A stretch of 64,000 nucleotides of DNA from a virus, in the IMG/VR virus record IMGVR_UViG_3300045988_078326. One strand, 5' to 3'. Each line of letters starts with the position of its first letter. The stretch's first letter is position 1. This document shows positions 21,358-22,585 of the stretch, piece after piece. The notes below the pieces were generated by a model. That model did no database searches, was not told where the DNA came from, and was given only the letters and a program-made list of their open reading frames with translations. A program made the translations under genes and the position numbers.

Positions 21358-21407
21358 AATTTTGGCAAAGATAATTTTACTATTTTGCCAAAATTTTTGC
21401 CAATTTT
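21358..21407 (-). promoter_or_regulatory. promoter/operator region A with three copies of a TTGGCAAAA / TTTTGCCAA-type motif
   Basis: tttggcaaag (21361-21370), ttttgccaaaa (21383-21393) and tttttgccaatttt (21394-21407). On the minus strand this reads as TTGGCA, an 18-nt spacer, then TAAAAT upstream of the gene at 21309. Confidence 0.4.
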
Positions 21408-21416
21408 AGTGTAAAA

Positions 21417-21448
21417 ATATATAATGGGACATAGTAGTCCCATTATAT
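21417..21448 (-). terminator. rho-independent terminator after the holin gene
   Basis: Perfect 11-bp inverted repeat atataatggga / tcccattatat, followed on the minus strand by a U-run. The right arm overlaps the holin stop. Confidence 0.45.
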
Positions 21449-21837
21449 CATGATAGTCTGTGCTCATTAACAGCAGCTTCGATAAGGTTAGTTAAATAAG
21501 TATTTAAGTCACCAGTTGTCTCGATAATATACTGTTTTGCATCACTAGAAAGGATTTCCAATACAGAGTTCATAGTCTTATCAAATGCAATTTTCTATGC
21601 CTCTGCATCAAAAGCACCCTGTTCTTTTAAGCTATCTACATAGGTTTGATTTGTTGCTATTACACACTTAGTAATAGTATCAAATATCATAGTAGTATAT
21701 TTCTGAGCTGTTTCATTCTCTGTTTTAGAATTTAACTCATCTCGTTTTGCAGAGAGGAAATCTACGAGATATTTTGTTAGAATACCAAGCAGAGGAAGAA
21801 TACAAAGCTAGAATATTTGAATAACAATTTCAGGCAT
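21448..21837 (-). CDS. holin (LL-H / Firmicutes phage holin-like)
   Basis: RBS GGAGGAATTAAT before ATG 21837. N-terminal TM is IVIQIF(Q)LCILPLLGILTKYL. C-terminus is ...IETTGDLNTYLTNLIEAAVNEHRLS. Two sense TAGs. Ends at TGA. Confidence 0.5.
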
Positions 21838-21924
21838 ATTAATTCCTCCTTTATATTATATATAAAACAAGAGGAAGATGGTTTAACTTTATTTGACCTG
21901 CGGATTTCCATTCAAACGATCGTT

Positions 21925-22512
21925 CTATTGACGTTCATAAATTCTTAATCTAAGTGTACTCTCAGACATACCTTGACATTCTTTCGCTAATCTTGTAATG
22001 GGTTCATTATGTAAATATCGGTCATATAGCTCATCAAAGTTATCTGGAAGATCTTTTCTTGGTCTACCAAATTTTACTCCTTTCTATTTGGCAGCCGCGA
22101 TTCCCTCAGCTTGTCGTTGTTTTATATAGGTTCTCTCTTGCTCAGCCTAAAAAGATAAAATTTGTAAGACTAAATCAGATATAAAAGTGCCCATAATATC
22201 CTTGCAATATGAAGTATCTAAAAGTGGCATATCGAGAACTTTTATATCAACATTCTTGGTTTTAGTAATTAAGCTCCACTATTCGAGGATTTCAGAATAG
22301 TTGCGTCCCAACCTATCAATGGACTTCAGGAGAATCATATCTCCTGAAGTCACAGTATTTATCATTTTTTGATAGGAGGGCCTATTAAAATCTTTTCCTG
22401 ACTATTTATCTATGAAGATATTTTCTTCCTTGACCCCAGCTTCTGTCAAGGCAAGAATTTGTCGGTCAATATTTTGGTCACGTGAACTAACTCGTGCGTA
22501 TCCGTATAACAC
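21925..22512 (-). CDS. small serine recombinase (resolvase/invertase family)
   Basis: GTG start after AGGTGA. N-terminus [18 protein letters not shown]..., catalytic-Ser context, the [11 protein letters not shown] motif, and a C-terminal HTH. Five sense TAGs. Ends at TAG-free stop 21925-21927. Confidence 0.8.
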
Positions 22513-22541
22513 CTTTATCACCTCATAGATATATGAAAAAA

Positions 22542-22585
22542 TGGCAATTTTATATAACAAAAATTGCCCAAAAATTTGGCAATTC
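22542..22585 (-). promoter_or_regulatory. promoter/operator region B with three copies of a TGGCAATTTT-type motif
   Basis: tggcaattttat (direct), aaaattgccc (inverted) and tttggcaattc (direct). Together they form a 26-bp imperfect palindrome GGCAATTTTATAT|AACAAAAATTGCC. It lies upstream of the recombinase and resembles region A. Confidence 0.4.

What the first reader, a model, noticed from the sequence alone, without database searches (positions are those of the whole stretch)
21358..22585. Small serine recombinase beside the holin and short tail-fibre genes, flanked by triplicated TTGGCAATTTT-like motifs
A roughly 195-aa resolvase/invertase-family recombinase at 21925..22512 ([11 protein letters not shown]...) sits between the holin and a cluster of short fibre genes, which is the typical Gin/Cin/Min neighbourhood. 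Both flanking intergenic regions (21358-21407 and 22542-22585) carry three copies of a roughly 10-bp motif in mixed orientation (TTGGCAAAA / TTTTGCCAA / TGGCAATTTT). Region B forms a 26-bp imperfect palindrome of the size of gix/hix sites. These may simply be repeated -35-like/operator elements of late promoters. Alternatively they may be recombination sites defining an invertible or excisable roughly 1.15-kb segment that holds the holin and the recombinase itself.
Basis: partly seen in the sequence, partly recalled or inferred. Interest (0 to 1): 0.6.

Follow-up and report, generated by a model that had tools for sequence, protein, structure and literature searches.

The report
Phage resolvase gene flanked by promoter repeats
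A small DNA-recombinase gene next to the lysis (holin) gene of an uncultured gut phage is real, but the repeated short motifs on either side of it look like two related gene-control regions rather than the ends of a flippable or removable DNA segment, so the finding is mostly ordinary.

Summary
A serine recombinase lies on the minus strand between a fibre-gene cassette and the holin, and both flanking intergenic regions carry three TTG(G/C)CAA motifs. GGCAA-N16-TTGCC occurs exactly twice in 64 kb, once per region (0.11 expected).

Two corrections. The window is a TAG-to-Gln recoded phage. The recombinase has 5 in-frame TAGs and runs 22512 to 21892 (207 aa, TAA stop 21889-21891). It is also closest to Sin resolvase (7e-36), not Gin (3e-15).

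The invertible or excisable reading is not supported:
- All 108 related loci (about 75 contigs, four clades) have recombinase, holin and next gene collinear, with none inverted or excised.
- The 26-nt inverted repeat depends on one motif whose central GC/CG flips between clades.
- The region A palindrome is missing in three clades that keep the recombinase, and intact in one genome that lost it.
- The palindrome centres differ (AA vs TA).
- Holin relatives with no recombinase beside the holin keep a region-A-like element.

Best reading: two paralogous modules of about 70 bp, each a sigma-A-type promoter with an operator or terminator palindrome. One heads the recombinase-holin unit, the other the next operon. 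The recombinase is under strong purifying selection (dN/dS 0.018) yet dispensable, and its DNA target is unidentified.

The parts
21889..22512 (-). Small serine recombinase gene. GTG start at 22512, 207 codons, TAA stop at 21889-21891, 5 in-frame TAG (=Gln) codons including 21925-21927.
   Evidence: Translation. Pfam PF00239 5.9e-31 and phrog_125 4.7e-52. Best solved relative is Sin, 2r0q, 7e-36. TAG positions align with Gln in clade C2. dN/dS 0.018 against clade C1.
22516..22585 (-). Region B, the regulatory module upstream of the recombinase. In gene orientation: TTGCCA (22582-22577, -35-like), TGGGCAA (22570-22564), -10-like TTATAT at the centre of the palindrome, TTGCC half-site, TTTCATATATCTATGA box, then Shine-Dalgarno GAGGTGAT.
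   Evidence: The wider block 22513-22600 is 96.6% identical to clade C1, while recombinase third codon positions are 65.7% identical.
22543..22568 (.). 26-bp palindrome GGCAATTTT-N8-AAAATTGCC (30 bp with flanks, centre TA at 22555/22556). It also scores as a weak intrinsic-terminator hairpin followed by T6 on the minus strand.
   Evidence: hairpin -10.5 kcal/mol. In clade C3 it is a perfect palindrome with 17-nt arms, and the two single-base variants there keep G-U pairs.
21448..21837 (-). Holin gene (129 aa, 2 in-frame TAG), 51 nt downstream of the recombinase stop.
   Evidence: phrog_13712 holin 1.5e-33. Adjacent to and co-directional with the recombinase in 108 of 108 loci.
21419..21448 (-). 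Intrinsic terminator hairpin plus T-run directly after the holin stop.
   Evidence: The stem sequence differs between the window and clade C1 (GGGACTACTATGTCCC versus GGGGTTACTATGCCCC) while the hairpin is kept.
21337..21410 (-). Region A, the regulatory module upstream of the next operon. In gene orientation: TTGGCA (21403-21398, -35), TTGGCAA (21391-21385), TAAAAT (21379-21374, -10), TTGCCAA (21368-21362), TTTCATATAATAATGA box (21359-21344).
   Evidence: Promoter scan gives TTGGCA-18-TAAAAT, 10 of 12. In register with region B, 42 of 70 identical, joint best non-self match in the window. The tandem part is conserved in clades C1 and C3, in recombinase-less L114 and L162, and in distant L038, L163 and L170.
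21364..21389 (.). Second GGCAA-N16-TTGCC palindrome (30 bp with flanks, centre AA/TT at 21376/21377).
   Evidence: The right half-site is absent in clades C2, C3 and C4 and in L038, but intact in L114, which lacks the recombinase.
20884..21309 (-). First gene of the operon served by region A (141 aa, Gln-rich, 8 TAG, phrog_21718, unknown function).
   Evidence: The operon 18332-21309 is deleted in L026/L074 just after the region A box.
22586..23970 (-). Hypervariable cassette of three small genes (the first is fibre-like) between the DGR module and region B.
   Evidence: Absent in clade C2. Replaced in L003, C3 and C4. Lost together with the recombinase in L114.

Best explanation
**Setting.** The locus is a late transcription unit, recombinase then holin, in a TAG-to-Gln recoded tailed phage of the human gut. 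The genome is about 146 kb. The host is probably a Clostridia bacterium.

**The recombinase.** It is a Sin/beta-like small serine recombinase of the resolvase type. It is catalytically intact and under strong purifying selection. It is nevertheless an accessory gene that has been lost or damaged several times. Its 4-8 in-frame TAG codons mean that full-length protein can be made only once the phage reads TAG as Gln, that is, late in infection together with the holin. This step is inferred.

**The flanking motifs.** The 'triplicated motifs' are not crossover sites. They are the building blocks of two paralogous regulatory modules of about 70 bp that are in register with each other. Each module has, in order:
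1. a -35-like TTGNCA hexamer;
2. a second TTGNCAA repeat 12 bp downstream, inside the spacer;
3. a -10-like TAAAAT or TTATAT hexamer;
4. an inverted half-site just downstream, which makes a GGCAA-N16-TTGCC palindrome centred on the -10;
5. a conserved TTTCATATA box ahead of the ribosome-binding site.

Region B starts the recombinase-holin unit. Its palindrome probably also terminates the upstream fibre cassette. Region A follows the holin terminator and starts the next operon. The palindromes most likely act as an operator for an unidentified dimeric regulator, or as RNA hairpins. Either would give the two units a shared control.

**Shown versus inferred.**
- Shown: the sequence architecture, its uniqueness in the window, its conservation pattern, and the absence of rearranged variants.
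- Inferred: promoter and operator function, late expression, and whichever DNA the recombinase really acts on, which was not identified.
For: 1. **Collinearity.** Recombinase, holin and the next gene are co-directional and adjacent in 108 of 108 loci with the recombinase (99 of 99 for the next gene). These come from IMG/VR, ENA/JGI metagenomes, GTDB MAGs and Logan, and span four clades with 75-98% recombinase identity.
2. **Promoter geometry.** Region A scores TTGGCA-18-TAAAAT and follows a strong terminator. The window has bona fide TTGACA-17-TATAAT and TTGGCC-17-ATATAA promoters in other post-terminator gaps.
3. **The motif core drifts like a -35 hexamer.** Variants seen are TTGCCA, TTGGCA, TTTACC, TTCCCA, TTGACA and TTGGGA.
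   - The central GC/CG of motif 1 in region B flips between clades. The 26-nt inverted repeat therefore becomes a direct repeat in clade C2.
4. **The sites are decoupled from the recombinase.**
   - The region A palindrome is absent in C2, C3 and C4, which have the recombinase.
   - It is intact in L114, which has lost the recombinase.
   - L038, L163, L170 and L162 keep a region-A-like element with no recombinase next to the holin.
   - C4 region B has no GGCAA/TTGCC palindrome, although its recombinase is intact and its putative recognition helix (STLRLR) is unchanged.
5. **The palindrome centres differ.** They are AA in region A and TA in region B in the window and in C1. Serine recombinases need matching 2-nt overhangs (PMC2428073, PMC2764113).
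6. **Functional constraint.** The region B block (22513-22600) is 96.6% identical between the window and C1, against 65.7% at recombinase third codon positions.
7. **Enzyme family.** Sin scores 7e-36, gamma-delta resolvase 4e-23 and Gin 3e-15.
Against: - The architecture occurs only at these two places in 64 kb. The region A tandem motif occurs once per related contig. So it is not a generic promoter class, and its restriction to the flanks of the recombinase-holin unit still needs a reason.
- In region B the -35 to -10 spacing is 19 nt, which is poor for sigma-A.
- The whole 88-nt block is conserved, more than a minimal promoter requires.
- The site design resembles a serine-recombinase dimer site: outer specific bases, an inner A/T tract, and 30 bp overall with a TA centre.
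- Resolvases typically have their res site in their own promoter.
- No transcription start data are available.
- Metagenome assemblies report only the majority orientation, so rare inversion (below a few percent) cannot be excluded.
- About 82 kb of the genome was not examined.
Confidence: 0.7

Rival explanations
1. The motifs are binding sites for the recombinase itself, either res-like or operator sites. In this reading the enzyme binds the GGCAA-N16-TTGCC palindromes, which overlap the -10 of its own promoter (region B) and of the next operon (region A). It would autoregulate and co-regulate the two units, as Tn3/gamma-delta resolvase does at res. Region B could also be its crossover site for resolving genome multimers (B x B on a dimer), with no rearrangement between A and B.
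For: - The enzyme is Sin-like, and Sin/Tn3 res sites contain inverted and direct repeats of the binding motif (PMC2428073).
- The 30-bp palindrome has a TA centre and A/T-rich inner arms.
- Region B combines tandem and inverted half-sites.
- The whole 88-nt block is strongly conserved.
- The palindromes are unique to these two places.
- Clade C2, whose recombinase carries Arg8-to-Cys, is also the clade in which the arms of palindrome B have decayed to the 5-bp core.
Against: - Clade C4 keeps an intact recombinase with the same putative recognition helix, yet has no GGCAA/TTGCC palindrome in either region.
- Palindrome A is absent in C2 and C3 but intact in recombinase-less L114.
- There are only three half-sites in about 47 bp, whereas Sin has four plus an HU/IHF site in 86 bp.
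- The recombinase is dispensable: L114, L135, L162 and several pseudogenes.
Confidence: 0.15
2. Regions A and B are crossover sites of an invertible 1.15-kb segment that carries the holin and the recombinase, in a Hin-like arrangement. Flipping it would switch lysis-gene expression.
For: - A 26-nt, 85% inverted repeat flanks the segment.
- The recombinase gene lies inside the segment, as hin does.
- Two palindromes of identical geometry sit at the borders.
Against: - 0 of 108 loci are inverted.
- The inverted-repeat relationship is not conserved. It is direct in C2, and motif 1 is degenerate in C3 and C4.
- The centre dinucleotides are AA versus TA.
- The right half of site A is missing in three clades.
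- The enzyme is closer to resolvases than to invertases.
- hix/gix-like cores are at chance level.
- Turning off the phage's own holin has no obvious benefit.
Confidence: 0.03
3. The module is excisable or integrative. Either the direct repeats (21344-68 / 22523-47) let the recombinase delete the holin-recombinase segment, or region A is an attachment site through which the phage integrates next to a tRNA-Phe gene.
For: - There is a direct repeat of 25 nt at 76%.
- One contig (L075) has a tRNA-Phe 5' end abutting region A exactly where the holin terminator normally sits.
Against: - No contig joins the cassette flank to the next gene.
- L075 is a singleton that ends inside the tRNA, and its junction was not found in the metagenome scan.
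- The recombinase-less variants L114 and L135 have different, imprecise endpoints inside the recombinase 3' end.
- The recombinase carries in-frame TAG codons, so it should not be made early, when integration would be decided (inference).
Confidence: 0.05

Closest known systems
Sin (S. aureus plasmids) and beta (pSM19035) family small serine resolvases with a res/six site in their own promoter region
   Same: - Best sequence match among solved structures: 2r0q Sin, 7e-36, aligned over residues 2-190.
- Catalytic motif YARVSS and DRLGR are present.
- GRPRK arm followed by a C-terminal helical domain.
- The gene is preceded by a region with inverted and direct copies of a short motif.
   Different: - No 86-bp res with site I, an HU/IHF site and site II. 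There are only three half-sites in about 47 bp.
- The sites are not conserved across clades that keep the enzyme.
- The gene sits in a large lytic-type phage rather than a plasmid or transposon.
- It carries in-frame TAG (Gln) codons.
- No recombination product was seen.
Hin/Gin/Cin/Min DNA invertase systems (Salmonella H segment; Mu G and P1 C tail-fibre segments)
   Same: - A small serine recombinase sits next to tail-fibre-like genes.
- There is a 26-bp imperfect palindrome.
- The recombinase lies between two related sites, as hin does.
   Different: - The protein is much closer to resolvases (Gin 3e-15 against Sin 7e-36).
- No AAACC-NN-GGTTT-type core.
- The central dinucleotides differ.
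- No oppositely oriented alternative fibre gene ends.
- Only one orientation in 108 loci.
Stop-codon (TAG to Gln, code 15) recoded gut phages in which lysis and late genes carry in-frame TAG (bioRxiv 10.1101/2021.08.26.457843; PMC9523058; PMC10607447)
   Same: - TAG read-through restores long ORFs.
- The holin and structural genes carry TAG codons.
- The early and replication genes (RNR, a primase-like gene) and also the capsid and sheath genes have none.
- Human gut origin.
   Different: - No suppressor tRNA lies in this 64-kb window.
- The family is not in GenBank phage records. DNA search found no match, and the best protein match is below 60%.
- A recoded serine recombinase co-located with the holin was not mentioned in the one paper whose text was searched for recombinase terms (PMC10607447); the other two were not searched.
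Terminator-promoter intergenic modules with operator palindromes over the -10 (ordinary bacterial and phage gene control)
   Same: - Position after a terminator and before an RBS.
- TTGNCA at 17-19 nt from a T(A/T)AWAT hexamer.
- A palindrome centred on the -10.
- Conservation exceeds that of synonymous sites.
   Different: - The two modules are a unique pair in the window.
- The -35-like hexamer is duplicated at 12-bp phase.
- The regulator is unknown.

Membership tests
Small serine recombinase (resolvase/invertase, PF00239) | N-terminal catalytic domain with the Ser nucleophile in Y-x-R-V-S-(S/T) | tested here: met
   [13 protein letters not shown] at the N-terminus. Pfam Resolvase 5.9e-31 over residues 3-146.
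Small serine recombinase (resolvase/invertase, PF00239) | Conserved catalytic Arg/Asp cluster (R8, D36, the D67-R68-x-G-R71 equivalents) and an E-helix | tested here: met
   R8, IFIDKQ and SIDRLGRN all align with Sin. The exception is clade C2, which has R8C.
Small serine recombinase (resolvase/invertase, PF00239) | C-terminal helix-turn-helix DNA-binding domain after a GR-rich minor-groove arm | tested here: inconclusive
   GRPRK is followed by about 55 residues that align with the Sin C-terminal domain to residue 190. No Pfam HTH family was hit at E<0.01. No structure was predicted.
Hin/Gin-type invertible segment | Two crossover sites in inverted orientation with identical central dinucleotides | tested here: not met
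   The centres are AA (21376/77) and TA (22555/56). The inverted relation is lost in other clades.
Hin/Gin-type invertible segment | Both orientations found in natural populations | tested here: not met
   108 of 108 loci have the same order and strand. Assemblies show majority forms only, so rare flipping was not tested.
Hin/Gin-type invertible segment | Recombinational enhancer (Fis sites) in cis | not tested
   No search was done. Host Fis is not expected in Firmicutes (own knowledge).
Mu G / P1 C-type fibre switching | Alternative fibre gene 3' ends in opposite orientation inside the invertible segment | tested here: not met
   All cassette genes are co-directional with the recombinase in all clades. 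No long inverted repeats flank them.
Sin/beta-type resolution system | res of about 86 bp next to the gene, with an inverted-repeat site I, an architectural-protein site and a direct-repeat site II | tested here: inconclusive
   Region B has one inverted pair and one tandem or inverted pair that share the middle motif, giving three half-sites in about 47 bp. The Sin geometry is taken from PMC2428073.
Sin/beta-type resolution system | Resolution of directly repeated res sites on one supercoiled molecule | not testable with these tools
   This needs an in vitro or in vivo recombination assay.
Sigma-A (sigma-70-type) promoter | -35 TTGACA-like and -10 TATAAT-like hexamers 16-18 nt apart upstream of a gene | tested here: met
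   Region A: TTGGCA-18-TAAAAT, 10 of 12. Region B is only marginal (TTGCCA-19-TTATAT, read from the sequence).
Sigma-A (sigma-70-type) promoter | Mapped transcription start | not testable with these tools
   No transcript data are available.
TAG-to-Gln recoded phage (genetic code 15) | In-frame TAG at positions that are Gln in homologues, with ORFs restored by read-through | tested here: met
TAG-to-Gln recoded phage (genetic code 15) | Phage-encoded suppressor tRNA (anticodon CUA) | tested here: inconclusive
   ARAGORN finds no tRNA in the 64-kb window. About 82 kb of the genome lies outside the window.

The most novel reading that the evidence does not exclude
The recombinase could be a recoding-gated late protein that binds the two unique GGCAA-N16-TTGCC palindromes sitting on the -10 elements of the holin unit and the next operon. 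A resolvase-family enzyme would then be used as the timer or feedback regulator of lysis. Alternatively it could catalyse rare inversion that silences the holin in a subpopulation. This has not been described for stop-codon-recoded phages.
Probability: 0.08. Interest if true: 0.6.

Novelty: new member of a known kind. Interest (0 to 1): 0.25.

Why it matters
As framed, a self-inverting or self-excising holin-recombinase module would have been a new kind of lysis switch. The comparative evidence argues against it.

What remains is modest. It is one more accessory Sin-like recombinase in an uncultured phage family, with a well-defined pair of conserved control regions.

Three things are useful in practice:
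- The window must be annotated with TAG read as Gln. Otherwise the recombinase, the holin and most late genes look like pseudogenes.
- The recombinase and the holin both depend on the code switch, which fits the published idea that recoding delays lysis functions.
- The family is abundant in human gut metagenomes (about 75 contigs here) and carries a canonical DGR next to a swappable fibre cassette. That makes it a good system for studying host-range variation.

Tried and rejected
- **GenBank phages.** A DNA search with 20600-23400 found no match. A protein search found only relatives below 60% identity.
- **General late-promoter idea.** Rejected. The motif pair is unique in the window, and the region A tandem motif occurs once per related contig.
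- **Sigma-54 reading of TGGCA...TTGC.** Rejected by inspecting the sequence. The GG-to-GC spacing is 11 rather than 10, and the first GG is missing in region B.
- **Bacteroidetes-type promoter (TAnnTTTG).** Rejected. All genes have strong Shine-Dalgarno sites, and the motif is not conserved in relatives.
- **hix/gix-like cores.** At chance level.
- **Rfam scan of 18-30 kb.** Nothing relevant.
- **A different invertible element in the divergent DGR/fibre intergenic region.** Two candidates were considered: the 21-nt inverted repeat 23926-46 / 24275-95, and the AGTGTACTTTTT pair flanking hairpin 24064-94.
  - The first is explained by a shared N-terminal peptide, M-x-C-I-L-x-x-Q.
  - The inner segment has the same orientation in 74 of 74 loci.
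- **Prophage junction at region A (L075 tRNA-Phe).**
  - The junction pattern is absent from the metagenome collection.
  - The tRNA core is absent from the other family contigs.
  - The question is unresolved.
- **Genome contigs motif scan.** It gave 42 hits, of which only L084 and L114 belong to the family.
- **Truncated or fused recombinase proteins in the database.** P0056, P0080 and P0116 start at an internal Met and look like gene-call artefacts. P0033 and P0049 are fusions to a cassette gene, possibly sporadic deletions. None looks like a site-specific product.
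Full report
**1. What is in the sequence**

Standard-code ORF calling breaks almost every gene in the region. The recombinase ORF stops after 36 codons counted from its GTG start (the listed ORF is 52 aa because it begins at an upstream TTG). 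Translating the minus strand shows a complete resolvase-family protein interrupted only by TAG codons.

Reading TAG as sense raises the residues in ORFs of at least 100 aa from 9,558 to 23,346 across the window. Recoding TGA gives no such gain (10,427). The resulting gene map is that of a large tailed phage:
- replication and nucleotide-metabolism genes on the plus strand, 1-18 kb;
- structural genes on the minus strand, 29-64 kb;
- up to 104 TAG codons in a single gene.

The recombinase runs from GTG 22512, preceded by GAGGTGAT, to a TAA at 21889-21891. It is 207 aa with 5 TAG codons.

Annotation of the locus:
- Recombinase: Pfam Resolvase 5.9e-31, PHROG 'DNA invertase' 4.7e-52.
- Downstream ORF 21448..21837: holin, phrog_13712, 1.5e-33.
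- ORF 23309..23968: a tail-fibre segment, 5.9e-13.

**2. The motifs are real and non-random**

- Exact TTGCCAWWWTTT occurs only in the two intergenic regions.
- GGCAA-N(14-18)-TTGCC occurs twice, both with N16, at 21364-21389 and 22543-22568, against 0.11 expected.
- The two regions are linked by a 26-nt inverted repeat (85%) and a 25-nt direct repeat (76%).
- In gene (minus-strand) orientation, regions A and B align in register over 70 nt with 42 identities. Region A is the joint best non-self match to region B in the window.

The shared plan, in order:
1. TTG(G/C)CA;
2. six bases;
3. T(T/G)GGCAA;
4. a T(A/T)AWAT hexamer at the centre of the palindrome;
5. TTGCC;
6. TTTCATATA(N3)ATGA, a box found exactly only in these two regions;
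7. the ribosome-binding site.

**3. Relatives**

No GenBank phage matches at the DNA level. The best protein match there is below 60%.

The following collections together hold about 75 related contigs, many of 137-149 kb, mostly from human gut samples:
- IMG/VR;
- ENA/JGI metagenome assemblies;
- two MAG bins (Eubacterium sp. and Oscillospiraceae);
- Logan assemblies.

By recombinase identity they fall into these clades:

| Clade | Identity to the window's recombinase |
|---|---|
| Window group | 98% |
| C1 | about 94% |
| C2 | 87% |
| C3 | about 76% |
| C4 | 75% |

In all 108 loci that carry the recombinase, it lies directly upstream of the holin on the same strand. In all 99 that reach the next gene, that gene is co-directional too. 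No inverted or excised form was seen.

**4. The sites do not behave like recombination sites**

- *Motif 1 of region B drifts.* It is TTGCCA in the window and C1, TTGGCA in C2, TTTACC in C3 and TTCCCA in C4. The 'inverted repeat' between A and B therefore depends on a GC/CG flip and becomes a direct repeat in C2.
- *The right half-site of palindrome A is not tied to the recombinase.*
  - It exists only in the window/C1 group.
  - C2, C3 and C4 lack it, although they keep the recombinase.
  - C3 has an unrelated small palindrome at that place. One variant (L153) differs from it by paired changes in both arms that keep the pairing.
- *C4 has no GGCAA/TTGCC palindrome at all.* Its recombinase is intact, and the putative recognition helix (S-x-STLRLR) is unchanged.
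- *L114 lost the recombinase but kept region A.* This 149-kb contig lost the fibre cassette, region B and all but the last 15 nt or so of the recombinase. Its region A is intact, palindrome included.
- *Other recombinase-less relatives keep a region-A-like element after the holin terminator.*
  - L162 lacks the whole DGR, cassette and recombinase block.
  - In distant holin relatives L038, L163 and L170 no recombinase lies beside the holin.
  - In some of these (L162, L163), motif 2 is the consensus TTGACA.
- *The centres of the two 30-bp palindromes differ.* They are AA (A) and TA (B) in the window and C1. Serine recombinases exchange 2-nt overhangs that must match (PMC2428073, PMC2764113).

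**5. Promoter reading**

- Region A follows a strong terminator (21419-21448) and scores TTGGCA-18-TAAAAT.
- Other post-terminator gaps in the window carry TTGACA-17-TATAAT (about 52025-52053, minus strand) and TTGGCC-17-ATATAA (inside 37449-37533). The phage therefore uses host-type promoters whose -35 resembles the motif.
- Palindrome B can fold as a hairpin followed by U6 (-10.5 kcal/mol) and was flagged as terminator-like.
  - In C3 it is a perfect palindrome with 17-nt arms, and the two single-base variants there keep G-U pairs.
  - In C2, which has no upstream cassette, only the 5-bp core is left.
  - It probably doubles as the cassette terminator.
- Constraint is strong. The 88-nt block containing region B (22513-22600) is 96.6% identical between the window and C1, against 65.7% at recombinase third codon positions.
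- Region A is also about 97% identical, but its downstream gene is too (93.6% at third positions). That figure may therefore reflect recent shared ancestry.

**6. The enzyme**

- It is closest to Sin (7e-36), then gamma-delta and Tn3 resolvases (about 1e-22), then Gin (3e-15).
- dN/dS against C1 is 0.018, with dS 1.15, so it is a working protein.
- It is also dispensable:
  - independent losses with different endpoints in L114 and L135;
  - absence in L162;
  - disrupted copies in L030, L137 and L131;
  - Arg8-to-Cys in C2.
- TAG codons (4-8 per gene) align with Gln codons in C2, which has none. Full-length protein therefore needs TAG suppression. This is an inference, consistent with the published model for recoded phages (bioRxiv 10.1101/2021.08.26.457843).
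- Its DNA target was not found.
  - There are no long inverted repeats around the fibre genes.
  - hix/gix-like cores are at chance level.
  - The divergent DGR/fibre intergenic segment has a single orientation in 74 of 74 loci.

**7. Context**

The recombinase sits at the holin-proximal end of an accessory block.
- A canonical DGR spans 24269-28176. All 15 TR/VR mismatches fall at TR adenines.
- The fibre cassette 22586-23970 is hypervariable. It is absent in C2 and replaced in L003, C3 and C4.
- The cassette borders coincide with gene ends and conserved intergenic blocks. Three assemblies (L127, L131, L134) break in the AT-rich stretch just outside region B. This fits modular exchange by ordinary recombination, or strain mixtures.

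**8. Verdict**

- The interpretation as an invertible or excisable holin-recombinase segment is not supported.
- The recombinase binding these sites as res-like or operator sites remains the main rival (0.15).
- Inversion, excision or integration together are below 0.1.
- Interest is low to moderate.

Noticed in passing
whole window (e.g. 42652-51351, 104 in-frame TAG): The whole window uses TAG as a sense (Gln) codon. Late and structural genes are rich in TAG. Several replication genes, the capsid gene and the sheath gene have none. No tRNA gene, and so no suppressor, lies in the window.
   Followed up: yes
24269-28176 (+): A complete diversity-generating retroelement: target gene (TTG 24269..26034, VR 25919-26020), Avd-like gene 26116..26610, TR 26642-26743, and reverse transcriptase 27052..28176 (YMDD). 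All 15 TR/VR mismatches are at TR adenines.
   Followed up: yes
22586-23970: A hypervariable cassette of small fibre-like genes lies between the DGR and the recombinase. It is absent in clade C2, replaced by unrelated genes in L003, C3 and C4, and lost together with the recombinase in L114. Three assemblies (L127, L131, L134) break just outside region B.
   Followed up: partly
23974-23985 (-) and 24137-24148 (+), hairpin 24064-24094: AGTGTACTTTTT occurs only twice in the window. The two copies point at the two divergent genes and flank a perfect terminator-like hairpin. In clade C4 the element reads AGGTGTACTTTTT at one copy and AAAGGTGTACTTT at the other, so the GTGTACTTT core is kept, and the inner segment has one orientation in 74 of 74 loci. 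It is probably a shared promoter or operator of the DGR target and the fibre cassette.
   Followed up: partly
23926-23946 and 24275-24295: A 21-nt inverted repeat (90%) arises because both divergent genes begin M-x-(K)-C-I-L-x-x-Q(TAG). This N-terminal peptide is conserved in the three other clades examined (C2, C3, L114), including in non-homologous cassette genes.
   Followed up: partly
L075 7770-7851 (IMGVR_UViG_3300014039_000159): In this one 7.85-kb contig, the 5' end of a tRNA-Phe(GAA) on the opposite strand abuts region A where the holin terminator normally is, and the contig ends inside the tRNA. It could be a host junction, a tRNA insertion or a chimera. This is unresolved.
   Followed up: partly
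18332-21309; L026 6380-6540, L046 3780-3860: The six-gene operon downstream of region A is entirely deleted in one related genome (L026/L074), with the break just after the TTTCATATA..ATGAAAG box. It is partly deleted in L046. The operon is therefore dispensable too.
   Followed up: partly
L007/L008 recombinase (L008 ~5999-6600): The clade C2 recombinase has Arg8-to-Cys in the catalytic motif (YACVSS) and no TAG codons. Its genome lacks the fibre cassette. The first five codons of the cassette's first gene are fused in frame to region B.
   Followed up: partly
L025 3320-3400; protein P0033: The first cassette gene of clade C3 carries a dockerin-like repeat (GDIDGDGKITENDRNRI). This hints at a cellulosome-bearing Clostridia host. 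Family contigs are binned with Eubacterium and Oscillospiraceae MAGs.
   Followed up: no
21397-21425 (+): A near-consensus promoter-like site, TTGCCA-17-TATAAT (11 of 12), sits on the plus strand and points antisense into the holin. Read by eye from the aligned sequences, the spacing and the -10 are not kept in clades C1 and C3, so it is probably fortuitous.
   Followed up: partly
37449-37533 (-) and 51993-52055 (-): Two other post-terminator gaps carry single promoter-like sites: TTGGCC-17-ATATAA, and the consensus TTGACA-17-TATAAT. The first is as similar to region B (42 of 70) as region A is.
   Followed up: partly
29366-29413: A perfect 21-nt inverted repeat with A- and T-runs lies between convergent genes. 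It looks like a bidirectional terminator, and it gave only sub-threshold Rfam hits.
   Followed up: no
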